A stretch of 63,860 bases of DNA, filler included, from Kipferlia bialata (Eukaryota), in assembly GCA_003568945.1 (NCBI GenBank). It is 3 parts of 3 records of this genome, joined end to end, with 100 filler letters (N's around TTAATTAATTAA, not from the genome) between each part and the next. Parts side by side here need not be neighbours in the genome. Positions count along the whole stretch, not along the records: positions 1 to 21,281 come from BDIP01000331.1; 2 more parts are not named here. The stretch is one strand, 5' to 3'. The notes beneath the pieces are model-generated. The model was not told the DNA's origin. It saw nothing but the letters and a program-made list of their open reading frames with translations, and made no database searches. How positions within the stretch are numbered: the first letter of the stretch is position 1; every line of letters starts with the position of its first letter. Made by a program: the position numbers and the translations under genes. Shown here piece by piece: positions 14,001 through 49,117 of this stretch.

Positions 14001-15753
14001 AGCGGAACAAGGGGAGACCCATGTTTGCATTTCCTCCCAACAGTGGAGCAGCTTTCCCTCCTACTAATCAGGGTGTATTCCCTACTCAGCCGCAGAGAGA
14101 GGGAATGGGGGGCAAGAGGGGGAGGGAGAGAGAGAGAGAGACTGGGCCATATGGTGGGACTGAGGCCACACACCGGGTGTCACCAAGGTATATATCTGTC
14201 CATCTCTCTCTCTCTCTGTATATAAATGTGTGTATATATATGCCTTACTCACTCTAGTATAGAGTTGTCAGACAGTGTTGACTTCTCCGTCAGTGACCCT
14301 CTCTCTCTCTCTCTCTCTCTGACCCTTAGTATTGAGCTCAGTGATAGCGTTGACTTCTCCGTGAGTGACACAGAGATGGGTCCCAGCCTAGGAGTGCAGA
14401 TGAGGGAGAGGGAGAGAGAGAGAGAGTACTACGCTCCGTCTCCAGAGGTCATGGACTTTACAGCAGGTATGTGTCAATATATGCAGTATATAGGAGGAGT
14501 GTGTGTATGTATATACTAGTGTATATCTCATGGATTTCACAGCAGGTACACATATCTATTTCATGTATAAATTACAGTATATGTGGTGCATACTACATGT
14601 GTTTCGTTTGGCTATGATCTCACACATACAATATCTCTTCCTCTCTCTGTTCTCACCCACCAGACGACTTTGATCTATCCCCCGCCCCTTCGGTCAAGCG
14701 TCGTCCTAGCCAGGGTCCGGGATGGTCTCCCTCGGTCAAGCCAAGTCAATTAGCACCTCCTGTTGTACGTACAGTACCACCCATGCCCAGTGGCCATAGA
14801 GAGAGAGAGAGGCACCTACCACATAGACATAATACTATGGGAGGGGGAGAGAGAGGGCGAGAGAGAGGGAGGGGTGGTCTCTCTCATAGTGTCTCCACTG
14901 GGTCTCTGGCACCACCTACCCATGCACACCCTGGACTCAGACACAAGGTACTATGTATATATATATATGGGTATATGTAGTTTGTGTGTATCAATGTATG
15001 TATAATCATTGATAGATACTATTGTCTATGATTCCACCTAACATCCTGGACTCAGACACAAGGTAGCAAGTATGCACTATAGTATAGCCGTGTATAGTGT
15101 ATTTATGTATACTATACAATTGTACTCTCTCTCTCTATGTATATGTGGTTGTTCATGTAAATATGGGTCTTATGTCCAGGCTTCCTTCCCTGGATCCGTC
15201 TCACACCCCCTTGTGCCACAGAGACATAGGAGAGATGCTGGAGATACGCGAGTTACCAACCAGACACCTAGAGAGCCTACAGAGTCCCCAGCACCAGCAC
15301 CACCTCTAGGGCGGTTTGCACCTGTGGGTGCCATATACTCTGCATCGAACACGGCGAGGTATGATATATCTATACATACACATATATGAATTTATATATA
15401 TACCATTTACTGTGTATATAGTAATTGTATCACGGTATTGTATACTGTGGGTGCCATATACTCTGCGTCCAACACTGCGAGGTATGCTCTAGTGTGTAGT
15501 ATGTATAGTGTGCATATGCATATCTATATAATTGGTTTACCACCAGGCGCGATACACTGCGAGGTATTATATACTATATATATACTATGATACATATACT
15601 TTACACTGTATATCCGAAGGCCAAGCATATATATATATCTATAATTCTCTATACTGTGAATTGTATATATATATGTGTGTGTGTATTAACAGTAGGCGTG
15701 ACACCCCAGCCCCCAAGCCCAGTCCCTTTGGAGGGAAGTCTCGCATGTTGTAA
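7346..15753 (+). CDS. SPRTN: SprT-domain DNA-protein crosslink protease Spartan
   Basis: Exons 7346-7467, 7924-7976, 8576-8652, 9314-9378, 10196-10267, 10608-10682, 11185-11247 and later ones give LHTLFQEYNETYFYNRLGHVTVEWSKRMTLCGGICYY...IKVRLSLPLLKLRPHTDYVNTLLHEMIHAYLF...GHGPRFLAEAARVNKASGANVTVYHNFHGEVDHYRQHVWECKKC. This contains HEXXH and is closely colinear with the metazoan SPRTN SprT domain. SHP-box-like GKGRTLGG at ~12360-12383; ends PFGGKSRML*. Confidence 0.92.
9180..9830 (+). repeat. Exon-echo array around SPRTN exon 9314-9378
   Basis: Two upstream ag|ATGATCCATG.. copies (~9181, ~9257) and four downstream ..CAGGAG(GAG)AAYGGACAY...AG|gt copies (~9457, 9574, 9671, 9797). Confidence 0.92.
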
Positions 15754-17421
15754 GGGTGTAGAGAGAGAGACAGAGACAGAGACAGAGACAGAGAGAGAGA
15801 GAGAGATTTCCTAATGACCCCTTTTGTTGAAGGGAAGATTCACCGCTGTTCCTATAGTGAAAGCTGACAGTCATTTTTACACGCTTCGCTTACTGATTGT
15901 TTGTTAGAGATATGTATAGCAATATATTCGTTGCTCATAAGTTGGGATGCGTTGGGGTGTAAACATCTGCTATCTTGATACTGTACTGCTTTGCAGTCTG
16001 GTGCCTACTTCAAACAGACTCTCGGTCAAACACAAGGAGTGAACGAAGGCCTGACCAACGTTACCCCCTCCTTCACGTCTTCGAGACAGGAGTGAATGCT
16101 AATTAGCGTAGATGTGTCTGGTAAGCAAAAGGCTGCTTCCTTGCTGCAACAGTGTCTGCTAGACTCTGTCTGTGAGGCGTTCGTCCATGAGTGATGAAGA
16201 GTAATCGGTACAAATATCCCCACTATTTCTTGACCTAACAAGTATTCGATCGTGCCGAGAGGTAACGCATATTGGACGAAAAGTGTCAACAAGTTGTTAA
16301 GAAGTTGTGCAAGACCATACTCACCACTCTTCTCACCACGGATGAAACTCCACAGTCCTGGGTCAGAGGTGCTGGCCTGGTGCTGTCAGTGGCATATACG
16401 GTACTAAATCTCCTTTTCTCTCTCCCTTACTCCCTATATTCTCAAACTACACATATTGACTATGAACTAGCTCCTCATTAGTAGCTGTAGTGGTATGAGT
16501 AGACTGCTGCGAGTCATGAAGCCAGGCTCATACATTTCCTCACTGTTTGATCACCAAACTTTAGTATGTAGCTCACACTTTGGAGTGCCCCTTGCCTTGC
16601 TTTGATCTAAGAAACTGAAAAGTCTTCCTTTAATGAATAGAAAGGCCCACTTTGAGATACTGACTTAGAACGTAGCACCATCTCTCTCTCTGTTCCCACA
16701 CCGTCATTCCCACGGCAGTTGTATGCAAATTCCGGTATCACTTTCCCAGCCTCCCTTCCCATTGAGGTATACCACTACCTCCACAGCATCCTCTGAATAT
16801 ATAATGATATATAGTATATAGTATAATAATATATTATATTCATTACTGATGTTGATACATCAGTATTGCTGTGGCTAAAGGTAATGTACAGGAGTAAAGT
16901 GTATGCATGTAACGGCGTTACATTGTAACGCTACTAAAGTATACTTATACAATGAGCCGACTGTTGCTAGCATCTTCCTGGATGGGTCATCCCCCGTGTC
17001 GGGCAACATTGAGAATATAGAGAAGATTGCTGACTCTTTCTGGAACGAAATTGGAAGAACACCGTAAACAATCTGTCAGGCTCTCTCACGTGTGTTGTCA
17101 GGGTATTGGTAACCACACTTTGATGTCGAGTTTACACTCTGTCAGAGGAGTGACACTGTTCTGCATATCTATTTCGACCTCATTATCACCCGAAGAGGTG
17201 TACGCATTCGTAGATTGGATCACTCCCTTGGTCTCTGAAGGTTTTGGAACAAGAGCACCCAGGAATGAGGGTGAGAAATGGTTCATTGGAGCGAACCGTT
17301 CTTATAGGACATTTCAGTGTCTCCATTCCAAGAGTTCCCACGAGAGTCAGTCTCTGATACTCTCTTTCCTCTCTGTGTACTGGTGTATCATAGCATGCTG
17401 GTTCCATTCTTCCGAAAATCA

Positions 17422-17466
17422 GACCATGTGGCAGAGTGGTTAACGCGGTTCCCTGCTAAGGAATTG
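17422..17466 (+). pseudogene. 5' half of tRNA-Ser(GCT), truncated in the variable arm
   Basis: GACCATG-TG-GCAGAGTGGTTAACGC-G-GTTCC-CT-GCT-AA-GGAAT-TG has the acceptor 5' strand, A-box/D arm (one A-C mismatch) and anticodon stem. No T arm or acceptor 3' strand follows. Confidence 0.7.
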
Positions 17467-17520
17467 TTGTATTAGTGGTATATAAGTATATATATATACA
17501 TCAATGTATATATATAGTGT

Positions 17521-21281: not shown

Positions 21282-21381
21282 NNNNNNNNNNNNNNNNNNN
21301 NNNNNNNNNNNNNNNNNNNNNNNNNTTAATTAATTAANNNNNNNNNNNNNNNNNNNNNNNNNNNNNNNNNNNNNNNNNNNN
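21282..21381. other. Artificial scaffold linker
   Basis: 44 N + TTAATTAATTAA (stops in six frames) + 44 N. Confidence 0.97.
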
Positions 21382-21639: not shown

Positions 21640-24600
21640 ATGGTCAACCGTCAGTACCAGGCGGATGTAAGGGTACGCATATATAACACTCAATGTATAC
21701 ATTGTAGATGCTCATGTGTAGTTGTATATGTTTCACAAGATTGGAGAAATAGTAATAGTATTTTTGAGGGGTATTGTATTATAATGTGTGTATCTATTGG
21801 GACTAGGAAGCCAGTACAAGGAAATTAGTTGCATGAATGGCCACCGTACCCACAGGGGGCACACATACTTTCATATATGTATATGGCTGTATTCGTATAT
21901 TCCTGTATATTCATGTATATATATATCTGACTGTATGCCTATATGCCTCTATACTTACCCCAGGATGGCCACCGCATCCACAAGAAGAAGATGCTCAAGA
22001 GAAAGACAGGGTCAGGTGGGGCCGATGCCTCTCTCTCTCTCTCTCTCTCTCTCTTGCTCTTCTCTCCCGTTGTGTCTCATCTGTTTCAATCCTGCTCACT
22101 TTCAGACAACCTCAACACCCACAAGGACATAGTCGAAACTCTTGTTGTCCCTGATAGAGTGGCCAGAGACATCGAGAGGGAGTGCGAGAGGACAAGACAG
22201 GTAAACCTTTGTATATAGTATATAGTGTATATTATATAGTATATAGACCCTCACGTGTGTGAATATATATATATATGTACATAGTAATGTTTTAGTATCA
22301 GATGGAGTGGCGAGGGAGAGCGAGAGACTCAGGCAAGTACACCATTGGGCTACAGAATATCAGTTTCTGTGTTCATACTCTATACTAAAAGGTTACTTTT
22401 GTATGCTGATCACCAGGCCTCCCTGAAGCAGTACGGCCTGTCCCCCGATACCCCCTCTGAGGTACAGCCTGACCTGGCACCCATACCGGAGACCGGGACA
22501 CCGATGGAGGTATGGATACATACATACATGAATATATATATGGGTATAGTATGCATCTATCAGTACATGAATTGCCTGACCTGGCACCATACCAGAGGGG
22601 ACACCCATAGAGGTACATACACACATATATGTATAGTACGTATAAAGTATGTATATATTAGTATCTGGAGTACAGCCTGACCTGGCACCCATACCAGAGG
22701 GCACACCACAGGAGGTACATACACACGTATATATATGTGACGAATTAGTATATAGTATATGCATTTGGCTATAACTGGGGTACAGCCTGACCTGGCCCCC
22801 ATACCTGAGGGGACACCGCCGGAGGTATAGAGGCATGATAATATATGTGACATATAAGTACATAGTATATGCATCTGTCTAGAACTGGGGTACAGCCTGA
22901 CCTGGCACCCATACCGGAAGGTACACCCATTGAGGTACATATATATGAGCTACTCATGGTTCTATAGTATATGCACATATGTATATGTATGAAGTGGGGC
23001 CTGACCTGGCACCCATACCAGAGGGCACACCGGTGGAGGTACATATATAGATGACATTTATATACAGTTAGTAGTAGTACATATAGTAGTAGTACATATA
23101 GTATGCATCCATCTTTATATAGAGTGGGGCCTGACCTGGCACCCACACCATGTGTACTGTGTAAGCAGTCAAATATGATATATATAGTCACTACCTTATC
23201 ATTACCCATCAGGATGTGCTGCGTATCAAGAGGGAGAGACTCTTCCACAGGGCAGTGCTGCAGTCCAGGTGTGTCAAATACATACACACATATATATGAG
23301 TGTATATTGATGTATATATATACTAATATAGAATAGAGTGTACAGTTTGAGAGGCTCTGATACAGGGTAGTGCTGTAGTCCCGGTATGTTTTCTTCATTC
23401 AGACACAGAAGAGTACATATTATGTTTGTGTTATCTGTAGGTTGTGCATAGTTATGGCTCTCACCCCAGGTGGGATGAAATTGAGCGCCCAGAGAGAGTG
23501 GAGGTATGGTACTGTTGTATCAGCTAGATACCATGAATCCCATCACTGAGGGTGCTGATATTTCACATTACTTCTAAATACTACTGCATCCTAAAATAGT
23601 TCCTTGGTATATCCCAAATGGAAGAAGAGAGTATACTCAGAATTTTTTTGGAGGAGAATATATTCAGTATACTTTCGCACCAACCACCAGTGGGAAGAGA
23701 GGATGAGAACCAGCCGGTACAAATCGCATGGCGGGGGTTCCTTCAGAGACCAGAGGAGGAGGCAGATTGAAAACAGGGTGAGCATTGACCATATATGTCA
23801 CGTGTGTATGCTACAGTGGTGTATTGTGCATTCATGTGTTCTGATGTCAGAAGACAGCAGTATATTGATATGCCTTAGAATAGAGTCTTATGACAGCTTA
23901 TATTATTTCTTATGTTCTGCTGTCTTTGTATCTATATGTTCCCTTCTGAAGTATGTGGTGAGTTACATGTCTCTCTTCACTAGCTTTGGCCTCTTCTCAC
24001 CCACCTAGAACAAGGTCGTCCCCCCTCTTTAGTTCTTCTGTGCGATTATGACTCTCTCCTACGTATTGTAGAATTATACACATACATATTATAGTTGTTG
24101 TACTTCTCACCCTACAGAACAAGGTTGTCCCCCCTCCTGAGTTCAGTGCTGACACTGACCCAGCATACCAGCCAGAGGGGGAGACAGAGACATATCCTGG
24201 GATGTCAGAGAGGTATATACTGAAGATACATCGCTATTATCATTACTACACTATATATTATATATACTATATACTATACACAGAACACTATATTCTCAGT
24301 TGGAAGTATGTCTCTATCAGGTAGGCTTGTGGAATTCATCAAGCGAGGGTTCATACTGTTTCTATCATGGTTCAGTCGGATGCCCTTCTGCGAGTCTGGA
24401 TACATTTGTAACTGTATCTCCTTTGCTGTGATGCTTATCGCAGGTGCTGGTTCCGGTTTCCAGACCAGACTCAGTGCATGCTTGTGAAGCCAGATGATAA
24501 GTGTACGTATACATATATATATATATATATGTGTGTGTGTACTATTGTGTATCCATGTATCTGCCTGGTATCACTATACTATATATGTATGCTACAACTT

Positions 24601-26698
24601 TCGATGTGTTGTGTGTGCTGTCGCTCTCTCTCTCACTTACCCCAGGCTTCTGTCCATACCACCAGAGATACATCCACACACTGGGTGGAGTGATAGGGCG
24701 AGGTACTACTACTACGTAAATGTATAACTATGGTACGGCTGTTGATTCCTAATTGTCAGGCACCCACGAGCCCCATGATCCCATCCCAGAGGAGGAGGGG
24801 GAGAGAGAGAGAGAGGAGAGGAGGGTGGCTGCAGTCAAGCTGTCAAGGTCAGTTGATGTGACTCTGCCAGGCTCTCTGGTAGTTTGGCGCATGTTGCTCT
24901 ATTGGCCTCTAGCATTGTCTCCTGTTGTATAACATAGGAGTACTCTGCAAGTGGTGAATATAGAAGAGTATGTTATATATATTCGCTGTTGCATTAACAC
25001 ATAGGGCCACTCAGTTGAACCCCGGCAGTCAGAGCTACGTAGTGCGGATGACACCGGAGGAAATAGAGGTATCTTCACATATTCATATACAAATACACAG
25101 TATATAGTGTATATATTCAGATAGAGAGTTACCTTGTGGGCATGACACCGTAGGAAAGGGAGGTTTAGGATATACAGTGTATATATCGTATCAGTTGTGA
25201 CGTATTAGAAGCAGTAGTATGTAAATGTGGTATTGCTATATAGTATACATTTGCAGCGCTGTGGAAGGATATGATGTTGCTATGGTATAGTTCTTCTATA
25301 TTCTTCTACTGTACTGTGTAGTGTTCAGCACTTGCCTAACACAGCTCAACGACATGCGCAAGAAGGCCGTAGCAAAGGCCAAGGCTCTGGGAAAGGGAAA
25401 GGGGGCCTCCAAGGTCAACCCCTTTCCCATCTCCTACAAGTCAGACCCCATGTACAAACCAGAGGGCAGGACTAAGAGGACAAAGGGATACACAAAGAGG
25501 TATATTCATATGTATTCATATACATATAGATGTATAGACACAGAGAGAGAGAGAATTGACAGTATAGCTTCCATTCCTACAGTAATTAGTGTTGTTCTGT
25601 CTCACCATCGATCCTATATCCGCACTTTCATTGGTGCTTGATCCGTTTCCCTGACCCAGAGTTGATCTAGTTACTCTTTGTCTTGCTTATCTCGCAGGTG
25701 CTGGTTCCGCTTCCCTGACAAGACCCAGTGTATGCTGTTCGTCAAGGATGGAAATTGTACGTCTTTTTGTAGTATATGTATTGGTTCCGAGTCTCTTAGT
25801 TCTCTAGTCATTATTGACGTGTATTATTTCAATAGTAAAGACATCATGTATATACACTTTCAGTAGTTTTCCCTTCAGCATAATCACACCAGGTTTCTGC
25901 ACCTATCACAGAGAGTACACACGCATAGTTGGATGGGTCATGTCCGCAAGTAAGTATAGATTGATGTACATATATTCATTGATTCTCTTATTCTCTTTTC
26001 CCTTCAAGTTCTCCTTACTCTCCTCACACAAGCTGCGTGTACCTCTCATGATACTCCTGAGCCTCCTGCACTGGTAGCGGAAGTGACAGATGTTGAGGTT
26101 GAGAGGGAGAGGGAGAGAGAGGAGGAGGTTGAGAGAGAGAGAGAAGAGGACGTAGAGACTGAGAGGGAGAGGGAGAGGGAGAGGGAGATGGTGGTAGAAG
26201 TTACCGAGGAAGAAGCTGAGCCATCAGTCATTGATGTTCCGATGGAGGTTAAGGCAGAGCCGGAGCTTCTCTCGCTTGTCAAGGTACAGGGGGACCAGGA
26301 GAGAGAGGTAGAAAGGGAGAGAGAGGATGTTGCAGACCCTGCTGCTGGAGATGTACCCATGGGCGTTGATCTTCTGAATGGAGCACAGGGAGATGCCGTT
26401 GCAAGGGAGAGAGAGATGCAGAGAGAGGGAGAGAACTGGGAGGAAGCGTACGTATACTTTGATATAGCCATCTCTTCACTAGTTATCTCTATGAATGTCC
26501 TTCTCACCTCCAGCAAAGCCTACCTGGCCACCCACTCCTGCTACAACAGATATACATTTATATAGTATATACTTATGTCTGTGATGTATTCTCACCTCCA
26601 GCAAGGCCTACCTAGCCACCCACTCATGCTACAACACAGAGATGAGGGAGGAGGTTCTAAGAGTTCTTAGGAAATACGGGTTCCAGGGGCAGAAGTAG
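21640..26698 (+). CDS. Hypothetical basic protein with two C-x8-C-x~10-C-x2-H zinc-finger-like repeats
   Basis: Canonical GT-AG exons give MVNRQYQAD|DGHRIHKKKMLKRKTGS|...RCWFRFPDQTQCMLVKPDDK..GFCPYH...RCWFRFPDKTQCMLFVKDGN..GFCTYH...ER-rich...RKYGFQGQK* (TAG 26696-26698). Confidence 0.7.
22575..23148 (+). repeat. Exon-echo array downstream of zinc-finger-gene exon 22417-22509
   Basis: Six copies starting CCTGACCTGGC, five ending GAG|gt, separated by dissimilar AT-rich spacers. Confidence 0.92.
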
Positions 26699-26904
26699 GT
26701 TATAAGATATAGTGACTGTGGGAGAGAGGGTTCCCTCTCCTATTTGTACGTCGTTGGGCTTTCCTGATTGACACATGTATAGTTATACATCTGCATACTG
26801 CAATACCGACAATCAATAGACACCAAGCAGTTTAGATCTATTGAGTTCAGCATACGTACCCGTCACGGGTCCCGTGTGGTACTTCTCCAACAGATATTGT
26901 CTCT

Positions 26905-29900
26905 TCACATGTCCATATCCACATCCTCCATACCCTCCGTCAACAACTCCTGAAGCCTCTCTCTCTCCTCCCCCTTTCTTGACCACTGGATGTTCCATAC
27001 AGCCTCAGCTACTGACTGACCCACTCCGCAGTCATCTAGCGAGCACTGAGGATAAGAATATAGAATCATGATATTCACATGAAACACAGGATACCATCAC
27101 AGAAACCCATGCAGAACTCGCAGTATATGATAATCATACTAGCTAGGAGCACAATGCCGTACCAGGAATGTTGACACTTCACTTGGTATCGCCACACCAA
27201 TAGCCACCGCCCCTCGGTCTCCAATGGGGTTGCCGTCCATGTTCAGCTATACATCAGAGTGGACAAAGAATGATTGAATAGACACATACCATTTCTATTG
27301 GACTCGATGATACTAATCCTCACTCACACCTCTGCGAGACATATATATCAGGACACATGAATAATCACTGTTACGGTATGATACAGTATCATTGATACCG
27401 TACTTAGTATCACTTTGAATTGATTCCCACACCCACCTCTTCCAGCACTGGCAGGTGTCTCATGGCCTGTGCGAGGGAGATAGCGCCCACAGATGTGATG
27501 CCGTTGTTGGAGAGGCACATCTAAGAGTGAGCATACGTACTCACACGTCATTCAATGAATGGGTCAGAGTGCTGCAGTGAGTAACAAGTAAATATGCACC
27601 TGCTGGAGTCTAGGCACATGCATCAGTCCATCTGCTATTGCCAACATGCCGATGTCTGATATGTGGTTGGAGCCCAAATTGAGCTAGGATTAAGGAAGAG
27701 AATCTAGGCGAATGTCTTGGGTAGAAAGCAAGACTTTTACGTTATCACATGGCAGATGGCACCTTCATCAGCATGGGCAGGTGCAACAGAGACTCAGCTA
27801 GGACTGTGGCATCGGATGGGGTCATACCCACATTGTGTAGGTGGATCTGGGTGTTAGGAGTATAGTGTAGTCACACTCATTGTCTAGATACAGCTGGGTG
27901 TCACTAGGGTAATGACGAAAGTATCAAGTGGTAATCAGGACTGCTTACCTCAGTCAGTCCCGGGAAGAGTGTCAGGGCACCAAAGAGGGTACAGTGGCTT
28001 GAACCGCCAACATGTGAGGTGTCATCAACTATGCAAAGCTAATCGTCAAAGTGAACAAGTTAAACCTAGTGATGCGACGGATACGGAGAGGTAGGTGTAT
28101 GATTACACAGATACAACAATCATACATACACACACACAAAGTATTACCTGTCCACTTCCTTGACGATGGCACTCCCTCAGTCTCTCAACCACCCAGGCGT
28201 CACCACACCTGGCACAGTACTCATCCAGCGCTCTCTGTCTCTCTGCCTACAGTTATACAGGCAGATATGAGGGAGACACATCAGAGTACAGATAGAGTGT
28301 GTGGATAATCAGTGTGTAATACGTACCAGCACTGGGTGTGTCTTTGCTTCCAGGTCTGCTAGCAGTCTCTTGGCTACAGAGCGGCTCTGGCTTGTTGGTA
28401 GCTTTACCCTGCTGTCAAGATGAATATGTATATCTCCACTATATCACATGTAGTGCTAATACTGTAGTCTGTCGATACCTGAAGTCAAGTATGCTCTTGA
28501 TGCTGTCTTCGATAGAGGCTGGGGCACCACAGTCATCAATACAGAGCTGGCGGTAAGGCTGCAGAGCCAAAGGCACTCATACACTATACAATACGCAAAT
28601 AGTTGCAATGTCGGTACCCACCTCCTTTAAGCGTCTCCTCTTTGGTAGCTGTCTGGCCAGGCCAAGACACCCACTCACACCGATGTTGTTCTTGCTCAGA
28701 TCTAGCTGCAAGGTCAGATAGGCCAGACTATATTCAAGATGGTTAATGCAACATCTACAAAAGAGACTGTCCGATATATATCGAGTTCATACTTACCGCC
28801 TTCAGTCTGGGCACCAGTCTGGTATCCATTCCACGACAGAGGACAGATACCCCCGCTGCTGATATGTGGTTCTCACTGAGGTACAACTGGGGGTTGGAGT
28901 TGAGAACTAGACAGATACGAGTGAATACCAGTAGAGTCCTTAGAGGGGGGGTAGGTCACCATTCACGACCCGTCCTATAGAACATACGAGTACATATTTG
29001 ATATATACATGATGAGCCAGAGGGAGAGATACCTCCTCGAGCAGGGGTATATGGTGCAGGTTGTCGACCAAGCACTGTAGGGATGTGTCTCTTAAGCCAC
29101 ACTCAATGAGGGTCAGCTGAGAGTCAGACACCTGACGTACACATGTACGTGTCTACGTTACAGAGTATATAGTAGACAAGTTTGAGGGTTGTATATGTCT
29201 CACCGTTGTCAGCCTTGGCACTGTGGCCAGGGACCTAGAAAGGGACATGACATCACCAGACTTCATGGGCAGGTAGGGGAGCCACAGCTGAGAGTTAGCT
29301 CCTCCTCATGTGTACACATATAGTAATCGCGTCCAGCATTCGTAGTGTGAGGTATAGGCTTGTGGATGTTGTGTGTCTGTAATACCTCCTCCAGATCTGG
29401 GAACAAGGGGAATGCCCCTGTGAGTGTGGTAAGACTTGTGTCACAGGCCTTGTCGGCATCTGGTTCATCGTTCAATCCCATCTGGTGTGAGGGTGAATAT
29501 AACACATTCACAACAGAACACAATGGGTGTGTGCTTGCAATATACACTGGCTCACTGTCGACATTCATGTGTATATATGATATAAATTGCATTCATACCC
29601 TTGTCCCTCCATGACAGTAGCACCCCCGCACCGACCATGTGACCCACTTGTCAGAACAGGTAAGGATGAAGGCAGTGACTGCATTGTCATACTGGGTCCA
29701 CTCGGCCTGGAATGAGACCAGACTAGGGACACGACTTATTATCAAGAGCAAGTATATATACTGTCATAATACATGTGTGTCTATGTGCCACGTACCAGCC
29801 TTGTCTGTGCATGGTGCATCAGCCTTTGCACTGCAGTGTATCTGTCACCCTGCTGTGCTGATAGTACCTCCTCTACCATCTCACTGATACATGGGGGGAC

Positions 29901-31165
29901 ACCACAGTTGGCAATACAGAGCTTGGGGTTAAGATTCTTAACTTAAGAACCATCTTCCACTATATTTACACACAAATAATTAGAATAGTGTGCATGTCTC
30001 GTACTACTCCTCTAATACATACCGTCTTCATACTGGGCATGTCTGCCAGGGCCCTTCCTAGACTGATGGCACCAGCTGCTCCAAGGTAGTTCCACCTGAG
30101 ATGGAGCTGGGGTAAAGACGACAGTTATACAGAAGAAGAGAGTATATGTACTCAGAGGCTAGATGTAAGCATATATGGTGAATATTCATACCTCACTTAG
30201 GCGTGGACACACTCCACTGGCTAGTGTCTCTGACAGCTCTTGTGCTCCAGTAGCTGTGATGTGGTTGCTTCTCAGACAGAGCTGGAGGGAGAAGAGGGCA
30301 AGCAATGACAAGAGATATAGTGTACTTGCAGTTTCCGGTGATATGAACTTGAGAGACAAGAGATAGGGACAAGTGGCCTCTGAATACTACGGTAATGAGA
30401 CAGTGTGCAGTACTTTGCACACCTTGTGAAGCTGTGGCAGATGAGGTAGGCTAGGGCAGATGGTTCCAATGTCCTCGTCACCCATGTCGGTACTATCCAG
30501 GTCTAGCTAGGATTAAGAAGTAATTCCGGGACAGAATGGGAGGTCAAGTGCAGGAAAATACACACAATAACACTACATACCTTCTCCAGCATTGGCACAT
30601 GCAGCAATGCTTCTGCTAGTGCCTGCACATCACCGCTGCTCATTGTCTTACTACTCAGGTTGAGCTGGTGGGTCAGGAGAGAGTGGGGGGGGAAGCAGAG
30701 ACTGGAAGAACCAACTACAAGACATTCTGGTGTAAAAGAGCATATATGTGTGATACTGAGAGTATTAAAAGGGTTCCGTGTAGCCTACACGGACCGTGTG
30801 GGGGGGTCACTTACCACTCTGAGTCCAGGGAACAGAGGAATGGCTCTTATGAGAGTGCGTGCCTCATCAATACCCTCCTCGCAGTAGGTGTCGCAGCCCA
30901 GCTCAGGTGAGAGTGGAGAGAGGGGGAGAGAGAGAGTTGAAAAGGAATATGCTATTATCAGACCATTGCGGTCTCATATATAGAGAGTGGATAACACAAC
31001 ATAGAGACATTTGTTCTAATCGGTCTGGTGGCGCCACATGAATGATAATCCAAAGCGTGTAGAACCTACCTTAACCCCTCCTCCCTCCTCACACTCTAGC
31101 ACTCTCTCCACAACCCACTCATCTTGACACCCATCACAGACAGCCAGGACAGACGCAGACACCAT
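26905..31165 (-). CDS. Ribonuclease-inhibitor-like leucine-rich repeat protein, roughly one repeat per exon
   Basis: Exon peptides LHLSWNYLGAAGAISLGRALADMPSMK, LYLSENHISAAGVSVLCRGM, LDLSKNNIGVSGCLGLARQL, LNLGSNHISDIGMLAIADGL, MCLSNNGITSVGAISLAQAM, LNMDGNPIGDRGAVAIG. Start MVSASVLAVC at 31165; stop at 26905. Confidence 0.85.
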
Positions 31166-31530
31166 TGCAGGGTGGTATATACACGCTTTGAGAGCGTCGC
31201 TCTTGTATGTTGTATGAGTGAATACATAGAGAGAGAGAGTGTGGACACTGCACTATGAGCAGTGACAATTGGCCACACACTTTAACTCTACAGTGTACTA
31301 CTGGACCCTTTTCTCAGTTTTTCGTCGATACATATGGACCGTTATAGTGACCATATATGCAATGCACATAACGGCTAGGTTACACACGCGTTGTGTAGAT
31401 TGCGTCAAAAATGCGGGGAAAGACCCAACCTGACATTTTCTATGAAACCCCGTTCGTTCTCCGTTCACATATTCAGTGTGAAACTAACTGCCTGCTCTAT
31501 TCACCCCATACGCCAAGGGAAGAGCGATAG

Positions 31531-33391
31531 ATGGAAGACACGACAAGGGACCTGATATACACCATCGCTCTTGGATCCTTCATTATTGAGCTCACATACT
31601 CATTTGCCCTGCTACGGTGGAGAAAGAGGTGGGTTGTCCAACTATATATACCATGTGTCTTGGGGTTTATGGCACCACTGTCCTATACTTATACACTTCC
31701 TCTCGCACCTTCACTTACTTCTGCAGACTGCATAGAAACATGCCACCCTGCTCTTCTCAGTTGTTCTTTCACATTCTCTGTTACTGCGTCAAGCTCTATG
31801 TATGTATAGGTATATGTGTGTCCATCCTAGTCTTGGTATCATAGCGATTTTAGTATGATGTTAACCTTCACCCACAGGTTTTTAGCTAACCGTACCAGAC
31901 TCTTTCGCATTCTCTCATTACATATTGAATAATACACTATGTCCGTTTGTTCTAACCCCCAGGTCTTCCCCCCACCGTGCCTCTGTTAGATGTCTGACCC
32001 TGACCTATGCCATGGAGTAAGTGGCCTCTCTCTCTTCTTCCTCTCTCTCTCTCTAGGTATATATGTGCCTATCCAGTCATAGACCTCTATCAAGACGTAT
32101 TTTTTCTGGCCCCCCGCTACATGTTGTTGTTCTCTCTCTCTGTCTGTGTCTCTATATATCCTGCCTCACCCCCAGCATGATCACTCTTCTAGTAGTCATT
32201 GCCAAGGTCAATGCCGGGCTGCCCGTCTGGATCCAGAGCACATACTCATTCCTCACATGGGGGTTCAGTGGCCTCATGCTGATCCCACTTAACACGGTGT
32301 TCATTAAGGTGGGGTTATGTTTTCTTGTCAACAGACGCTATATTTTCACTTAATGAGTATTCACCTTGAAGACAAGTTTCTCTCTAAAGACAGGCGTTCC
32401 ACGGGATGTACTCTGTCTCCCACTACAAGAGGGTTCGCTCCATCAGCCGTGTTGTCTCCATAGTACTGGGCACCCTGGCCCTAGTCATCTATGGATGGGA
32501 TACTGTCTATACCTATGGGTATGTGATGTCTCTCCATCCAGCCTGTCTAAGTAAATCTTTACACCAGTTATTCCCAATCGGACTCAACCCATACCACAGA
32601 GTCCTTTGATACCCATGAGACACTGGTATCCACACTGTACAAGGCAGTGTACATGGCAGAGGTGGGTTACTGTTACACCACTAGACTAGTGGTCCACTAG
32701 TGTATATACTTACATGTATGTGTGGCGGTAAAAAACTAATTATTTACATACACTGTACAAGGCAGTGTACATGGCAGAGGTGGGGTAACTGTAGTATATG
32801 TATATATGTGTCTGCAAGAGGGTGATGTATAAATGTATCTACTGTCCACAGCAGTGTATATGGCAGATGATTGTCAAGACAGTATCAGACTGATACTATC
32901 AGTGTTGCATATAGTGTCTATCCTGCCGATGCAACGTATAATGTTCCCCGTACTCCCAGAGAGACTAGAAGTACCCCCCCCGCATATCAGGTAACAACTG
33001 TAGTATGCCACCATATCAGTATATGTTATTATGAAAATTCATGTCTTATGTCAGCTTGTGTAGTAGGGTGCCATTATGACCTCCATATCTATCTGCAAGT
33101 ATATAGATATACGTCATGTCATGTAGTACGACTAAGAGGTGTATATACAAGAACTGGGTTCATACATATATCTCATATCAGGTTGTGCAGCTGGGTGCCA
33201 TCCTGACCTCCATGTCCCTCCATGCATGCACCATGACCAGAAGGATACAGATGACCAGCCCCACTGACTTCAGGAAGACGTCAACAAGAGAACGCAGGTG
33301 GCGGATTGTTATGATGTTGATTCATTATACCATATTTCCTATATGGGGTCATTTACCATTTTCCTTTGCGCTGGGATGTGTTTCTTGCTGA
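31531..33391 (+). CDS. Hypothetical multi-pass membrane protein (3' end uncertain)
   Basis: Several hydrophobic segments across spliced exons: LIYTIALGSFIIELTYSFALL; YSFLTWGFSGLMLIPLNTVFI; VVSIVLGTLALVIYGW; VVQLGAILTSMSL. Confidence 0.55.
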
Positions 33392-33848
33392 TGCCAGTCT
33401 TTCCTCCAAGCTGATCGCCCTTCCTTTAGTCGTAGCCTCCTATGCCATATCCACTGGCCTGATAGCATGGGCCACCCTGCACAAACCAAGTGCGGTGGAT
33501 ATACTGACTGTAGTGTGCAACCAGGTATTGTAGCTCCCTTTTGCATTATACACTGTCTTTCATCTAAAGTCCCTGACCAAAAGGTAGAAACGTTATCCCT
33601 CTGTCTCCTAATGTATCCTGGCAAGCCAACTCAGAGTATACCTGAGTTTACAGGACGTGTCTCCGTTTGAGGGCTCATTTGAGTTATTCGGTGTGTTTGC
33701 ACCGCAACTACATTATAGAATCTAGAGATCTAGAGAAGTATTTCACGTCAAGTGGCAAAATAGTCTATACTGCATGGTAATGTAAGTACTGCGTCCATGT
33801 ATATTGTCTCCACGTTGATGTCACGTCTCTCTCCCTTCAAGTGAAGCC

Positions 33849-36533: not shown

Positions 36534-37014
36534 GTGTCTATGAGTGCTAGAGTCTCTTGCCACAACAGCTCTCCCTTAGTGTCTTCTCTCTTCAGCATGT
36601 TAGAGTAGCTGTTATAGATGCGCATTAGACATAGTGTCTATGAGAGTGTCACACTCGCCTAGAAATGGACACACATTCAATAGACCCAACTATTATACAC
36701 CCTCAGGATCATACTGCAATAGTATCAGAATTGTGTTTTGACAGTGTGCAAACCCATCGCCATATACCTGTTATGCATTTAGACGGTACCTCTCCCTACA
36801 CTAACGACTCACACACAAATAATGACTATTAATTCTAGACACTATGTTTCATCAGCCAGTAGTACTATATCAATACCATGATCAATTGTACCGCCTGTAT
36901 ACAGTCAGTGTTCCACGAGTCATCTATTAATACCAGCTCTGGCACACACACACATTATCCATTTTCACCAACCAGACATCATTCCCTCCCTCTCACACAA
37001 TCTCCCTCAGCCCC

Positions 37015-42756: not shown

Positions 42757-43916
42757 GCCCTCTCCTCCCAGTCTGCTGAGGCCGTCAGGGTGTGTGACTA
42801 CGGCAGTGCCAGCGACAAGACATGGGTCGGCAAGACTATGCGGAGGTATAGCTAAGTAATATGGTGTATGTGTATTTGTCAGATAGTTGTATATACTATA
42901 TATATATGTGTAATAGTGACAAGACATGGGTCGGAAAGACAATGCGGAGGTACGAGACACACACACACATATATATACCCCATCATCCACTCTAGTACTT
43001 GATTGTCACCCTCACCCCCAGGAATGGTACCATGCGCTGTGACGCAGAGATCTTCATCTCCCACAACACCACCCCTGCGTACAGGGCACCTGAGATGGCC
43101 GACCTGTACAGTGGACAGGACATATCCTGTAAGGTATATAGTATATATAGTATATATACATGAAAATCTATATGGTTATAGGGGTGGATGGCCGACCTCT
43201 ACAGTGGGCAGGATATATCTCTCTTGCAAGGTATGCCCTAAGCGTTGATGTAGAAGCAGTGCATTGTAGATTGCTATGATAGTGTATGTATTAGTTAGCA
43301 CTCCACTGTGTATTCACTGACCCCCAGACTGATGTGTGGGCCCTGGGAGTGCTGCTGTACAAGATGATGTACTTTAAGGTATGGGTATTGATGGTGTATC
43401 TTTATCTACATAGCTCCCTTTGCCGACATTCATATCCATATTCCCTATATATCAATATACATGTATATATGAAGTATCATTCATATACCTGATACCCAGG
43501 CCCCCTTTGCGGACACCGGCATCCCCTTAGATATACATTCGCATACCTATATATGTATATATATATAATGTATCACTACATGTACTGATACCCAGGCCCC
43601 CTTTGTCGATACCGACATCCCCTTAGATATACTTACACATTGATACTCGGATATAGCTGTCTATATGTCTATCTATGTATACTGATCTCCAGGCCCCCTT
43701 TGCTGACACCGACATCCCTCTGGGCATCATCCAGAACAAGTGGCACTTCCCAGTGCCCGTGTCCAACCTGAGGTATATACATACATATTGAATGTTATGT
43801 GTAATGCACGCATGTGAGTGCAGCCTCTCTCATAATATATATATAGATCTATCTATATATGTGCCCATCTAACCCCCTAGGGACACTGAGCTGCGGCACA
43901 AGAAGAAGGAGTGCAG

Positions 43917-43951
<35 letters not shown>

Positions 43952-44021
43952 GTATATATACTATTGTATGTACTTACCTCTAGAGACACTGAACTGAGGC
44001 ACAAGAAGGAGGAGTGCAGTG

Positions 44022-44054
<33 letters not shown>

Positions 44055-45152
44055 ATATATATATATATGTGTGTGTGTGTACCCTTACCCTCTAGAGATA
44101 CTGAGCTGCGGCACAAGAAGGAGGAGTGCAGGGGCAAGGGCCTGTCTGTGGACGAGAGGGCAGCTGCGCCAAGGGAAGGTGAGCTCACTTAGCTAGATAT
44201 GTACATGTGTATTGTATTGTATCTGGCATGTGTTTCTCTGTCTGTGGACGAGAGGGCAGCTGCACCCAGAGAGGGTATGTATGTACACATATGTACAGAG
44301 AGAGAGGGGGGGAGAGTACATATATATATATATATATATGCATAGAATGTGTCTATATATCTCTGTCGATGGCAGCTGCGCCAAGGGAAGGTGAGTGCTG
44401 ACTCTAGTATTACTATGTATAGATTCAATATCGTGTAGACCCAGAGATGGCAATGGTTCGACAGTGTTTTCGATATAGTTGTATTACCCCCTCACCCCCA
44501 GGCCTGTGCTACTCCGAGTCCCTCAAGGCCTGTGTCCGTATGTGTCTGACCAAGAAGGTGGACGAGAGGGCTACGGTGTTCGATGTGGCTAGGTATATAT
44601 AGATAAGTAACATATATATATACATATTTGTTGATTATATAGGTCGAGGAGAGGGCAACGGTGTTTGATGTGGCTAGGTATGTATATATGTGTGTATGTA
44701 TAGAGAGTGTATCGTTTCTCTATGTCTCTGTCTTTCTTCGCTCCCCCCTCTTACCATCTAGATACATCACCAAGACATGTCTCTCTCTCTCTCGGCCTCT
44801 GTCTCTCTCTCTCTCTCTGACCATCTAGATACATCACCAAGACAGCCGGTGTTCCCTGCCCCCTGCCCACATCCCTCAGACTAAGGGGGACACCACAGGT
44901 ATGTATATGTATGGAATATACATATAGATATAGACATTGTATATGTATATGAGTACTATGTATAGTTTGTATGTCCATCCCTCAGGCTCAGGGGGACACC
45001 CCAGGTACTCATATACCCACATGAACTTCATTGTTGGTAGTACTCACATACAATTCTATACATCTATCATAGATGACTCATTCTCTGTCTCTGTCTCTAT
45101 CTCTTCTATGGATATGTATTATGTAACGCCCAGGTCACTGAGCCTAGTCAGT

Positions 45153-45197
<45 letters not shown>

Positions 45198-45637
45198 ATA
45201 TATATATAACGCCCAGGTCACTGAGCCCGGTGCCATTGAGGTGTCTGGTGGAGACGAGCCTGCCCCAGCTCAGGTTAGTATTTGAAGGATATTAGACACA
45301 TATATGGTTGTACACATGCATGTGTAAACATGTATATATGTGTGAGACTCACCTGCACCAGCTCAGGTGGGTGTAGTATATCTATACAGGGTATCAATAC
45401 TGTTGGTGCCTGCTATACTATTCTCTCATCACTAGGGTAGCCTCGATACCTTCTGGGCCAAGCACTACATGTATTCATATATATATATATATATATAGTA
45501 TTGACTATTCTCACCATCAGGGCGGCTTCGATGCCTTCTGGGCCGAGGACAATGCCACCCCCCATGCCCCTGCCCAGGACATGTTCAGTCAGGCGGTGTC
45601 ACCTCAGGTATATGATGTATATGTACAGAAATATTTC

Positions 45638-45682
<45 letters not shown>

Positions 45683-47298
45683 GGGGTCAGGACATGTTCA
45701 GCCAGGCAGTGTCACCACATGTATACACATGGACATCTATAGATTATAGATAGTGTATGTGATATACCTCACCTCCTAGGTATCTGCCCCTGCCCCTGCC
45801 GCAGATGATGCCTTTGGTCTCTTCGAGTCCTTCGAGAGTGCCCCTGTGGCATCCACAGCCAGTGCCTCCAACCCCCCCTCTGCCGATGGGTCCTTTGACT
45901 GGGGGGCATTCAGTACGGCACCTACACAGGTGGGTATATAGACTACATAGATTGGATATATATGTATACTATATATGTATACTATATGTGTATATGTATA
46001 TACTATATATGAGTATACTGTTGTTAGCTGGGGGGCATTCAGCACAGCACCTGCTCAGGTGGGTATATATATATATGTATATGCTATTATACATGAATAC
46101 TATATACTGTAATTATATATTGATCTGTCCTTTGACCGGGGGGCATTCAGCACAGCACCCACTCAGGTATATACATGATGAATACTATGTATATGTATGC
46201 TTTCAATGTAGACCGTATATAGATGTATGTGTCGTGTGTTTATAGTTTGGCTTTGTATACATCTGTAGTATTGTCTCTGACCCTCCCAGGCTGTTGTCTC
46301 TGCACCCCCATCATCCATGGCTAACCAGGTACAATCTCTCTACCGTACTCACATGCTTGCGCTCTCTCTCTGTCTTGTACTAGTTGCCATGGATCTCTCT
46401 CTCTCTCTCCCTAGCCCCTTATTCCAAGGCCAAGACCACTGATGCCATGGACATCTTCAGTGCCAGACCAGCTCCCAAGCAGACGGTGCAGCAGGTATTA
46501 CAGAGTGTATGTAGCATATGTATATATATTTGTGTGTGTGTGTGTATCTATAAGACATATTACCTCACCTCCCAGGCCACTGTTCAGCCCAAGCAGTCCC
46601 ACGGGATAGGGTCACTGTTCCACAGCAAGCAGGCACCCGCTTACCAGGTACTCTCTTTCTCTATATATACACTTACTCTCCCCCTCTATCTGACCCCCAG
46701 GGTCTGACCTCCCCCGTGGCAGCTATGTATATACCTACTTCTATCTCTCTCTCTCTATATATATGTGAATACATACTCCCCCCCTCTCTCCCCCCCAGGG
46801 CCTGACCTCCCCCGTGGCAGCCCCCACCCAGACACAGACATTTGCAACACCTGCCAAGGGCCACAAGGTATTGTTTGTGCTGCTGGATACTATTTGTATA
46901 TATACTCTGTGTTTGTGTTCTATATCTGATATTCCACCTCTCTCTTACCTCTAGGCCCCAGCCCAGGCTGCCGAGAGGCACCCTTCGCACATGGCTGATA
47001 CCCTGCTCAAGAAGCTGCTGAGGCACTCGGTCCCAAAGTGGAAGCACATTCAGGTGAAGATATATATATATATGCGTATTTATATATGTATATGTGTGTA
47101 TAGTGTACACACGTTGTGTTGATGTAGACACTCAGTCCCTAAGTGGAAGTACATTCAGGTGTGTATATGGTATCTTGCATTTCCAGAGCAATACGTCATA
47201 CCTTGAGTCTCTGAATGGTTGTATGTGTACATGTCCTCTCTCACCCCCAGGGTCTAGCCTATCTGACCTGGCCCCCCAACTCCCCCTCTGCCTATCTC

Positions 47299-47332
<34 letters not shown>

Positions 47333-49117
47333 CCTCTCTCTCTCTGACTCTAGGGCCTTGCCTACCTTACCTGGCCCCCCAACTCCCCCTCTGCCGGTCT
47401 GGTCACTGTATTGACATGTGCCGCCAAGCAGAGCCCGGTCAGACAGAAGCCAGAGGCTAGGTATACCCATAGTGCATAGAATAGTAATATATATATGTAT
47501 ATGATATATGTGACTAATTAGTGCCCAGTCAGACAGAAGCCAGAGGCTAGGTATATACTGTGCTAATTATATAATGATACATTCTACTTACTATATTATG
47601 TAGATACTACTATAGAAGAAGAATTCAGTCAGACAGAAGCCAGAGGCCAGGTATGCAGAGTGTAGTTATTTATATACCTATTTGTTGTCTCTTTCCTAAT
47701 ACTATACTACTGTGTATCCTCTCCTTACCCCCAGGGTTGCCTGTCTGGCCTCTGTGCTCAGACTCCTCCAGCTGGTGCCAACTGCAGCTGTCCAGGGTGA
47801 GAACAGTGATGTATACTCATCTAGTATACTTTTGTATTTGTATATGTGTTTGTTTCTCAGTCATCTTACCCCCCAGGCCCCTCTGATCCCGTGGCCAAGT
47901 TCCTCGCCTCCCTGCCACGCCTGCCACCCTCACCCCTGTCCGGTATCGATGATTGGCATATATATATATATATATATTTATACTACTATATGTACCCTAT
48001 CGTTCATGAGTTTCTTACCCCAGGTGTGATTGATGCCTATACCGCATATCTTAGGGCCAGAGTCACCACCCTCAGGGGCAACACTAGCCTGCACGCCAAC
48101 CTCTGCATCCGGTGTGTGTGTATATATCCTTACACCATTTACAATCTCTTCCACTTCTTTTGACCATATAGCGACGTCATTCTCCTCATGTACGCATTCT
48201 TTCCCACAGCCATTTGTGTCGCTTGTTCCTATGCTCTGTTCTAACCCCCCCAGTGACGTCATCTCCCGCCCCCCTCTGTGCCGTCGTGCCGACCAGGCCC
48301 TGCTATCACTAGGTACCTCAATACATATTTCTATGTGTTTATATGTATGTATATATCTTCTCACCCCAGGCACCTCCCTTGTCTCTCTCTGCGATGCAGT
48401 GTCTGCCATCGGGGCTGGGTCACTCCTGTCCACAGCACAGGGGGAGGGTGATGACACCATGGCAGTCCGGACAAGTGCAGGCATACCAGTGCTCAGAGAG
48501 TGCAAGGACATACTCGGGGCCATAAGGGCGGTGCATGACAAGGTATAGACATAGTACATTATTTATTCATAAAAGTGTGTGTAAGTGTCTCACCCCCCAG
48601 GTCTCCAAGCTGGGCTCCCCCTCTGCCGGTCTCTCTCTCTCTGTATATATATATGTATACTATGGATATGCCTCACCCATAGGTCTCCAGGCTGGGCTCC
48701 CCCTCAGCCGGTCTGGCTGGGAAGAGCACCGACCCCTTCGCCGATCTCCTCTCCTCCCCCGGTGTGTCTCTAGCACCCACTGTGGACGAGGCCCACATCG
48801 TGTACACTGGTCTCAAGGGGTACATGCAGGGTGCCTCTAACAGCATGGATAGAGAGGAGGTATCGGTGGTGGGGGTGCCTAGGATGGGGGAGACACTCAT
48901 GCAGTGCTCACAGACAGGTATGCAGTGCATGTGGTATGTAGTGTACAGTGTGTAATGTGTACTCCACCTCACCCCAGCCCTCCCCGTCCCCACCCCCCTC
49001 GTCCCACCCCCTGTGCCTACTGACATGGGGGCAGAGGCAGAGGGACAGAGTGCACACACTGCTCCTGTGCAGCAGCAGCAGCCTAGGGTGGTGCAGGCAG
49101 CCCTGCTCGACTTCTAG
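42757..49117 (+). CDS. NAK-family (AAK1/BMP2K/GAK-like) Ser/Thr kinase, 5'-truncated, with C-terminal ANTH-like region and terminal clathrin box
   Basis: VRVCDYGSA; ISHNTTPAYRAPEMADLYSGQ; TDVWALGVLLYKMMYFKAPF; SESLKACVRMCLTKKVDERATVFDV (NAK 'TT..YRAPEM.DLY' signature). Later PKWKHIQGLAYLTW...VLRLLQ...IDAYTAYLRARV; ends AALLDF* (TAG 49115-49117). Confidence 0.88.

What the first reader, a model, noticed from the sequence alone, without database searches (positions are those of the whole stretch)
14258..14369. Echoes diverge from their exon mainly at synonymous sites, although apparently untranslatable
Seen: echo 14259-14297 (ATA GAG TTG TCA GAC AGT GTT GAC TTC TCC GTC AGT GAC) and exon 14331-14369 (ATT GAG CTC AGT GAT AGC GTT GAC TTC TCC GTG AGT GAC) differ at 9 of 39 nt yet both read IELSDSVDFSVSD, including a TCA/AGT serine switch. 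SPRTN echo 8353-8390 vs exon 8576-8613: 6/6 differences synonymous. ASF1 echo 6322-6271: 4/4. ASF1 echo 5368-5416: 3/3. NAK echo ~43984 has GAC/GAT, GAA/GAG and AGG/CGG. Some echoes do carry replacements (P>L at ~9484, A>S at ~9999). Established: neutrally decaying copies accumulate mostly non-synonymous changes. Inference: echoes are fragments of divergent functional alleles or homologues captured by recombination, or they still contribute to protein via gene conversion or unusual splicing. Neutral tandem duplication alone does not explain this.
Basis: partly seen in the sequence, partly recalled or inferred. Interest (0 to 1): 0.94.

Follow-up and report, generated by a model that had tools for sequence, protein, structure and literature searches.

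The report
Introns archive fragments of working alleles
In the free-living protist Kipferlia bialata, 51 of 83 introns examined carry short copies of their own exon ends that differ from the working exon mostly at silent positions, likely because they are pieces of once-working alleles stacked up by out-of-register recombination, which would record hidden sex and very high diversity in a single genome.

Summary
Observation confirmed and extended. The focal pair differs at 9 of 39 nt with an identical peptide. A codon-blind search found 89 exon-end copies ('echoes') in 51 of 83 introns. Mismatches at codon positions 1/2/3 are 24/12/122; dN/dS is 0.10 (95% 0.065-0.146). The right null is about 0.5, not 1; 160 simulations of it never fell below 0.275. 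Echo-versus-echo dN/dS is also 0.12, and echo acceptors keep a valid but different branch motif (34/36), so the echoes themselves evolved under selection. They are real DNA; an RNA contig skips three donor echoes and reads the exon letter at 6 of 6 diagnostic sites. Acceptor echoes, including the focal one, were not seen directly in RNA. Best explanation (0.55): out-of-register crossovers between diverged alleles, anchored in exon ends, cycle units through the working position. A tuned toy model reproduces the numbers only with outcrossing and silent diversity near 0.2. Against: this strain shows no SNP at 153 silent sites, and no second isolate was found. The architecture is the known 'mirage' type; this scan met such copies before in other genomes (a sea-urchin case fitted the 0.5 null). 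I found the selection signature in no paper searched.

The parts
14240..14297 (+). Focal acceptor echo: branch motif and AG (14240-14257) plus the first 40 nt of exon 14 of the SprT-like gene
14298..14329 (+). (CT)n spacer and the working acceptor, with a different but valid branch motif
14330..14466 (+). Working exon 14
   Evidence: public protein P0001 maps here and holds the peptide once; 3' end covered by the RNA contig
14188..14329 (+). Intron 13 (142 nt, GT..AG) that contains the focal echo
   Evidence: skipping of the echo is inferred from RNA contig lengths, not seen directly
14528..14545 (+). Donor echo of exon 14, spliced out
15041..15062 (+). Donor echo of exon 15, spliced out
15445..15481 (+). 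Donor echo of exon 16, spliced out
7346..15753 (+). SprT-like gene (KIPB_002121), 17 exons, 28 echoes in the strict set, dN/dS 0.07
1321..7039 (-).
909..1181 (-). Three clear copies (and one weak one) of the end of the coding sequence, downstream of the ASF1-like stop codon
17520..21203 (-). Unnamed 8-exon gene segment, 14 echoes, dN/dS 0.06
22574..23149 (+). Array of six donor echoes of exon 22417-22509; several states at silent sites, amino-acid changes concentrated in one codon
41281..41441 (-). Donor echoes in a beta-amylase-like gene (label by recall); the copy across the 21-N gap was dropped as an artefact
42757..49117 (+). Protein kinase gene (KIPB_002135), 23 exons, 21 echoes, dN/dS 0.05-0.10

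Best explanation
The echoes are real copies of exon ends with their splice signals, lying in the introns and differing from the working exon mostly at silent sites, and they are likely pieces of once-working alleles that out-of-register recombination stacked beside the working exon. Step 1 (inferred): a rare duplication spans a coding/non-coding boundary, about 30 nt of exon plus 75 nt of intron. Step 2: it is tolerated because the spliceosome takes the exon-side site, the first donor (shown for three introns) and the last acceptor (inferred). Step 3 (inferred): the microsatellite-rich introns diverge fast between alleles, so the exon end is the only good homology. A crossover between one haplotype's echo and another's working exon adds or replaces an echo with selected sequence. 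The reciprocal product puts an echo into the working position, where selection purges it. Every unit therefore spends most of its history as a working exon end in some lineage. Echo-exon divergence (silent about 0.2) would then approximate allelic diversity in a large, at least occasionally outcrossing population.
For: dN/dS 0.10, bootstrap over 65 exon ends 0.065-0.146; half-neutral simulations through the same pipeline average 0.42-0.52, minimum 0.275 of 160. The value holds without CpG-prone sites (0.12), with one echo per exon end (0.11), in the two genes with public models (0.07) and without gap-adjacent echoes (0.105). Echo-echo dN/dS 0.116 (95% 0.06-0.18; 24 pairs), where any history with a single working lineage gives 0.5 or more. 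In 24 arrays, echo-private changes are 27 silent/18 replacement and exon-private only 8/1, so the signal is not exon drift. Echo acceptors differ from the working acceptor by 4.8 edits in 16 nt, yet 34 of 40 keep a branch motif; 18 are expected if half the edits were neutral. Intron flanks are homologous (p 7e-9) but none of 80 is identical, and flank divergence rises with silent divergence (Spearman -0.34). Neighbouring echoes share their inner junction in 12 of 24 pairs vs 21% by chance (p 0.002), and donors precede acceptors in all 14 mixed introns. Five three-state sites, all at position 3, imply more than two source haplotypes or repeated hits. Toy model: outcrossing with theta 0.24 gave pS 0.17, dN/dS 0.07-0.09, 22-27% identical echoes and echo-echo 0.12-0.14 (observed 0.19, 0.10, 20/89, 0.12); clonal exchange at that theta gave dN/dS 0.50-0.69. 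Metamonads lack NHEJ, Fornicata lost Rad51A, and meiotic genes are conserved (PMC8516963, passages).
Against: No second haplotype is seen. DNA contigs over 597 coding nt (153 silent sites) show no other letter and flat depth, whereas silent diversity of 0.19 predicts about 29 heterozygous sites, about half visible in collapsed contigs. The strain must therefore be inbred or homozygous here, which also makes the high exchange rate harder to reach. The toy model was tuned: 2 of 24 settings fit, needing 300-600 exchanges per per-site mutation rate per junction plus a cost per echo; at lower rates outcrossing gave only 0.19-0.57. Replacement changes are no commoner outside folded domains (0.11 vs 0.09) and include 2 stops in 34, so they look like neutral decay, not allelic polymorphism. 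Four-gamete patterns in two arrays involve CpG sites in a CpG-depleted genome (o/e 0.33) and are weak. No other isolate was found.
Confidence: 0.55

Rival explanations
1. Same capture, without true sex: two homologues of a long-clonal diploid (or rare hybrids with sister species) diverge under selection. Break repair off the homologue with one sloppy end leaves echoes, and loss of heterozygosity then erases the donor allele.
For: K. bialata is reported as diploid from k-mer peaks (PMC5874029, passage); NHEJ is absent in metamonads; homozygosity at the tested locus fits loss of heterozygosity.
Against: Three-state silent sites and a six-unit array need repeated rounds. Early echoes would then decay neutrally, yet dN/dS does not rise with rank (0.11, 0.08, 0.13; only 3 echoes at rank 3). 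This diploid model was not simulated.
Confidence: 0.2
2. Echoes are still read into protein: a minority of transcripts use echo sequence, by alternative splice sites or by a repeat-guided RNA or DNA swap that replaces the exon end with the echo.
For: Only translation gives 3-nt periodicity. 80 of 89 echoes keep GT/AG, with donor scores equal to real donors. The focal echo is in frame and stop-free. Acceptor echoes were not seen in RNA.
Against: The RNA contig takes the first donor at three introns and reads exon letters at 6 of 6 sites; no DNA contig joins echo to exon there. In-frame 27/78 and in-frame plus stop-free 7/78 are at chance. Contig lengths fit skipping of the focal echo. Echoes also lie beyond a stop codon. 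Contigs drop rare variants, so minor use is not excluded.
Confidence: 0.1
3. Clonal birth-and-death with second-order selection: deletions between echo and exon occasionally make the echo the working end, which purges harmful echo mutations without any allele exchange.
For: Explains conserved codons and splice signals together and needs no partner; shared junctions fit.
Against: In 12 clonal toy settings, dN/dS stayed at 0.38 or above in 11; the exception had pS 0.013, far below the observed 0.19. No echo has an identical intron flank.
Confidence: 0.08
4. Ordinary decaying junction duplications ('mirages') in which only the working exon is protected; the silent excess is the half-neutral effect plus selection by eye.
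For: The architecture is that of known mirages; an earlier sea-urchin case in this scan had 43 of 107 silent changes, as this null predicts.
Against: Silent share here is 72% vs 37-41% simulated; echo-echo dN/dS is 0.12; detection was codon-blind.
Confidence: 0.04
5. Assembly artefact: exons of a second haplotype placed in tandem.
For: Short-read assemblies of diploids can do this; one exact duplicate flanks a 21-N gap and two echoes flank an 86-N gap.
Against: Echoes are partial (12-53 nt) and up to six per junction. DNA contigs of run X1 bridge three echoes and their exons at flat depth 442-458 with no other letters, and hold 96% of the words of 8500-15800. That run may be the source of the window, so it is a second assembly, not a second sample. 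Dropping gap-adjacent echoes leaves 0.105.
Confidence: 0.03

Closest known systems
[quoted passage not shown]
   Same: Head-to-tail units span a splice boundary at either end of an exon, mostly keep AG/GT and do not disturb splicing; unit lengths overlap (about 105 nt here; 10-160 there); unequal crossing-over was proposed.
   Different: Here they occupy 51 of 83 introns in a protist. Units are mostly too diverged for a tandem-repeat finder (about 7 arrays detected against 65 echo-bearing exon ends). They show purifying selection at codons and branch motifs instead of concerted homogenisation. The word 'synonymous' does not occur in PMC3087553; its supplementary alignments were not seen.
Human junction-spanning VNTRs: F7 intron 7, CBS intron 13, lamin B2, PDGF intron 4 (PMC1557585; abstract and passages)
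   Same: Repeated donor sites downstream of the real one; the most upstream donor is used.
   Different: Those are near-identical repeats at single loci with only a few exon bases (4 in F7). No acceptor arrays or codon-level selection are described in the passages seen.
Silent partial cassettes of antigenic variation (Borrelia vlsE, Anaplasma msp2, Neisseria pilS; recalled, no call)
   Same: Untranslated partial gene copies that keep coding-like evolution because they recombine into the expressed position.
   Different: Those are dedicated loci with programmed one-way conversion. Here housekeeping genes are affected at most exon ends, differences are silent rather than diversifying, and no DNA switching was seen at three echoes.
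Tandem exon duplication giving mutually exclusive exons (recalled)
   Same: Exon-like copies with dN/dS below 1 next to an exon.
   Different: Echoes are partial and carry one splice site; none of the three testable in RNA was used.

Membership tests
Mirage (junction-spanning tandem duplication) | Units span an exon-intron boundary and lie head to tail in the adjoining intron | tested here: met
   89 echoes within 8 nt of the exon end; unit median about 105 nt; +108 nt of intron per echo; flanks homologous
Mirage (junction-spanning tandem duplication) | Many units keep AG/GT signals | tested here: met
   80 of 89
Mirage (junction-spanning tandem duplication) | Regular splicing is undisturbed | tested here: inconclusive
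   Met for 3 donor echoes in one RNA contig; acceptor echoes only inferred
Mirage (junction-spanning tandem duplication) | Minisatellite-like unit identity (81-100%) with concerted evolution inside the cluster | tested here: not met
   About 7 arrays found by TRF, at 72-87% matches; 0 of 80 flanks identical; echo-echo pS 0.22. Filed as a variant that works like a mirage, not as a member
Mirage (junction-spanning tandem duplication) | Copy-number instability between haplotypes or cells | not testable with these tools
   One sample only; no second isolate found
Mutually exclusive tandem exons | Copy has both acceptor and donor and appears in mRNA | tested here: not met
   Copies are partial with one splice site; skipped in the RNA contig at 3 of 3 testable
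Silent cassette gene-conversion system | Cassette sequence is switched into the expressed locus within a culture | tested here: inconclusive
   No echo letters or echo-exon joints in DNA or RNA contigs at three echoes, but contigs drop rare variants
mRNA-templated insertion | Copy joins exon to exon without intron sequence | tested here: not met
   Echoes carry intronic splice signals and homologous intron flank

The most novel reading that the evidence does not exclude
Echo codons still reach protein: K. bialata swaps an echo for the matching exon start at the RNA or somatic-DNA level by a repeat-guided process, so that introns act as a genome-wide bank of interchangeable exon ends. This is excluded as the major route at three donor echoes but untested for acceptor echoes, including the focal one, and for minor transcripts. 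The favoured reading (an intronic archive of alleles that records cryptic outcrossing, probability 0.55) is itself new and would deserve about 0.85.
Probability: 0.07. Interest if true: 0.97.

Novelty: new variant of a known kind. Interest (0 to 1): 0.78.

Why it matters
Sex has not been directly observed in any metamonad (PMC8516963, passage). If echoes are captured alleles, one genome holds thousands of samples of its species' gene pool. Silent diversity (about 0.2, at the top of known eukaryote values, by recall) and recombination between haplotypes could then be estimated without population sampling, and the claim can be tested with a second isolate. The pattern would explain why many K. 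bialata introns are long (about 108 nt per echo). It also shows that a protist with about 120-nt introns and a reduced spliceosome (87 of 174 proteins searched, PMC6679479, passage) ignores perfect internal splice sites, which points to exon-side definition. Finally, it gives a test (echo-echo dN/dS) for telling dead junction copies from recycled ones in amphioxus and sea-urchin mirages.

Tried and rejected
No whole genome is held, so all counts come from this window. Reads could be laid only on 14010-15500, and the tool skipped 14110-14432, so the focal echo was not seen directly in DNA or RNA. The RNA label of run X2 is the tool's guess; its spliced GT..AG joints support it. The share of words in X2 (0.23) fits exon-version mRNA (0.229-0.235) but is too coarse to exclude echo versions (0.21-0.22). 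Searches for another isolate found nothing: two metagenome scans (60 and 42 pattern matches, none confirmed), two protein searches (one hit each, identical to the query exon) and a cluster look-up (1 member). No echo was found upstream of three start codons. A rank effect was absent. The folded-domain versus other-exon contrast gave no difference. Four-gamete patterns were set aside because of CpG homoplasy. CpG hypermutation, transition bias, exon-only drift, pseudo-replication and gap artefacts were each tested and do not explain the signal. Rows dropped before counting: one two-exon gene fragment (171-682) whose frame could not be fixed independently; one kinase intron with an uncertain boundary; the exact duplicate across the 21-N gap; low-complexity exon parts, including the ASF1-like acidic-tail arrays; hits more than 8 nt from the exon end. 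Genes at about 26-37 kb and 49-60 kb were not modelled; they hold few short-range repeats, so 51 of 83 overstates the window-wide frequency. Pfam did not name the one ASF1-like exon tried. The original mirage paper (PMC117041) is not held. Ten literature searches found no report of echoes in Kipferlia and no report of a synonymous bias in mirages; most were seen as listings only, and subscription journals are not covered.

Full report
Setting. The window is three scaffolds joined by spacers. Two exons match K. bialata proteins at 100%: the SprT-like KIPB_002121 and the kinase KIPB_002135. No whole genome is held. The SprT-like protein maps uniquely to 17 GT..AG exons and contains the focal peptide once. 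I modelled nine further gene segments by hand, fixing frames by open-frame continuity. The kinase model agrees with the public protein except for one exon start. Total: 93 exons and 83 introns.

The observation. The focal echo (14258-14297) follows a branch motif and AG and differs from exon 14 at 9 of 39 nt, with an identical peptide including an AGT/TCA serine switch. The focal echo happens to be in frame and stop-free.

Is it more than chance? I searched each intron with its two flanking exons by nucleotide local alignment, masked low-complexity exon parts, calibrated thresholds on exon-intron pairs from different genes (0.2 false hits expected), and kept hits within 8 nt of the exon end. 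This gave 89 echoes at 65 exon ends in 51 of 83 introns. Mismatches at codon positions 1/2/3 were 24/12/122, pS 0.194, pN 0.022, dN/dS 0.10; nine scoring schemes gave 0.07-0.17. The bootstrap over exon ends gave 0.065-0.146. Simulated echoes put through the same pipeline gave 0.98 (neutral) and 0.42-0.52 (half-neutral, four settings, minimum 0.275 of 160 runs). The result holds without CpG-prone sites (0.12), with one echo per exon end (0.11), in the two genes with public models (0.07) and without gap-adjacent echoes (0.105).

The echoes themselves were selected. Neighbouring echoes compared with each other give dN/dS 0.116 (95% 0.06-0.18; 24 pairs). If only one lineage were ever functional this would be 0.5 or more (inference from branch lengths). 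In 24 arrays, changes private to an echo are 27 silent and 18 replacement, and those private to the exon 8 and 1. In the six-echo array at 22574-23149, silent sites show up to three states while replacements pile up in one codon (M, I, Q, P, I, V). Splice signals behave the same way. 80 of 89 echoes keep GT or AG; echo donors score like real donors (5.69 vs 5.69; random intronic GT 4.07); 34 of 36 AG-bearing echo acceptors have a branch motif (real 75 of 83; random AG 6%). They do so despite 4.8 edits per 16 nt, where half-neutral decay predicts 18 of 40 against 34 observed.

Anatomy. Each unit is about 30 nt of exon plus 75 nt of intron (median about 105 nt), and introns grow by 108 nt per echo. 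Intron flanks are homologous to the working flank (p 7e-9), but none of 80 is identical, even beside the echoes that match the exon perfectly; flank and silent divergence covary. Neighbouring echoes share their inner junction more often than chance (12 of 24 vs 21%, p 0.002), and donor echoes always precede acceptor echoes, which points to one founding event and later amplification. Copies also lie behind a stop codon, so the anchor is the coding/non-coding boundary, not splicing as such. The template was genomic or unspliced, since intron signals come along.

Real DNA, and spliced out. Run X1 holds 96% of the words of 8500-15800. On 14010-15500 its contigs bridge three donor echoes and their exons at flat depth (442-458) with no other letters. 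X1 may be the source of the window, so this is a second assembly, not a second sample. One contig of X2 (RNA by the tool's guess) joins 14463>14661 and 14945>15178 at GT..AG and continues into the last exon. It uses the first donor each time and reads exon letters at 6 of 6 diagnostic sites. The tool skipped 14110-14432. The 180 unlaid letters of that contig fit an mRNA without the focal echo (it would start at 14111 and overlap the previous contig by 29 nt) better than one with it; this is an inference from lengths. Using an echo site would be in frame in 27 of 78 cases and also stop-free in 7, as chance predicts.

Mechanism. I favour out-of-register crossovers between diverged alleles, anchored in exon ends because the repeat-rich introns align poorly. 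Each such event refreshes or adds an echo with sequence that was functional in another lineage, and the reciprocal event exposes an echo to selection. All of these steps are inferred. A toy forward model was run in 24 settings. Outcrossing at theta 0.24, with 300-600 exchanges per per-site mutation rate and a mild cost per echo, gave pS 0.17, dN/dS 0.07-0.09, 22-27% identical echoes and echo-echo 0.12-0.14, close to the data. Clonal exchange never combined low dN/dS with high pS, low diversity gave pS of 0.05 or less at high exchange, and lower exchange rates gave 0.19-0.57. Only 2 of 24 settings fit, so this shows sufficiency, not proof. Passages of PMC8516963 report that metamonads lack NHEJ, that Fornicata lost Rad51A and keep two Dmc1 paralogues, that meiotic genes are conserved, and that sex has not been directly observed.

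Evidence against. The strain shows no SNP over 597 coding nt (153 silent sites), where about 14 differences should be visible if it were outbred at this diversity; the species is reported as diploid (PMC5874029, passage). Replacement changes are not enriched outside folded domains and include 2 stops in 34, although they are somewhat conservative (BLOSUM p 0.008). Four-gamete patterns are confounded by CpG decay. No second isolate was found. The genes modelled were chosen largely for visible echoes, so the frequency is not window-wide.

What is known. The architecture is that of amphioxus 'mirages' (PMC3087553 and PMC3902484, passages; lead from earlier scan notes) and of the human F7-type VNTRs, where the most upstream donor wins (PMC1557585, abstract and passages). 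Mirages are described as minisatellite-like, with concerted evolution. Here a tandem-repeat finder sees only about 7 arrays and the units are diverged under selection, so I file this as a variant, not a member. Passages of the K. bialata genome paper and of the spliceosome paper that I saw do not mention echoes. Ten searches found no report of them or of a synonymous bias in mirages. I did not see the original mirage paper or any supplements; the globin mirage alignments could bear on novelty.

Verdict. The feature is real and far beyond the correct null, and it is best read as an intronic archive of once-functional alleles (0.55). It is a new variant of a known kind; interest 0.78.

Noticed in passing
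window 14954: A full-depth DNA contig of run X1 aligns with 17 letters left out just after the donor of exon 15. It may be a heterozygous intron length variant or an alignment quirk; no other full-depth contig differed from the window there.
   Followed up: partly
window 21282-21381 and 42591-42690: The window is three scaffolds joined by N-padded spacers; echo-rich and echo-poor blocks do not follow the scaffold borders exactly.
   Followed up: partly
window 24000-40000 and 48000-60000: Short-range repeats and dinucleotide repeats are scarce here (4-9% vs 17-28% in 1-24000). Among modelled introns, echo-bearing ones are richer in dinucleotide repeats (0.27 vs 0.20, p 0.016).
   Followed up: partly
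window 2011-3590, minus strand: Two long donor arrays (about six copies each) of acidic-tail exons of the ASF1-like gene, with varying GAG-triplet lengths; masked as low complexity and not counted.
   Followed up: no
window 49108-49142: A 12-nt unit that includes the kinase stop codon is repeated about three times.
   Followed up: no
window 24444-24702 and 25698-25949: An internally repeated Cys/His domain (CWFRFP...CFC...H) has the same intron position in both repeats.
   Followed up: no
whole window: CpG is depleted threefold in exons and introns alike (o/e 0.33-0.34, TpG and CpA 1.3-1.4 in exons), suggesting present or past cytosine methylation.
   Followed up: partly
window 59975-60107 and 59179-59213: Conventional 24-nt (5.5 copies) and 14-nt tandem repeats outside the modelled genes.
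   Followed up: no
window 17410-17480 and 63660-63850: tRNA-like stretches by eye, some apparently partial or repeated; no tRNA scan was run.
   Followed up: no
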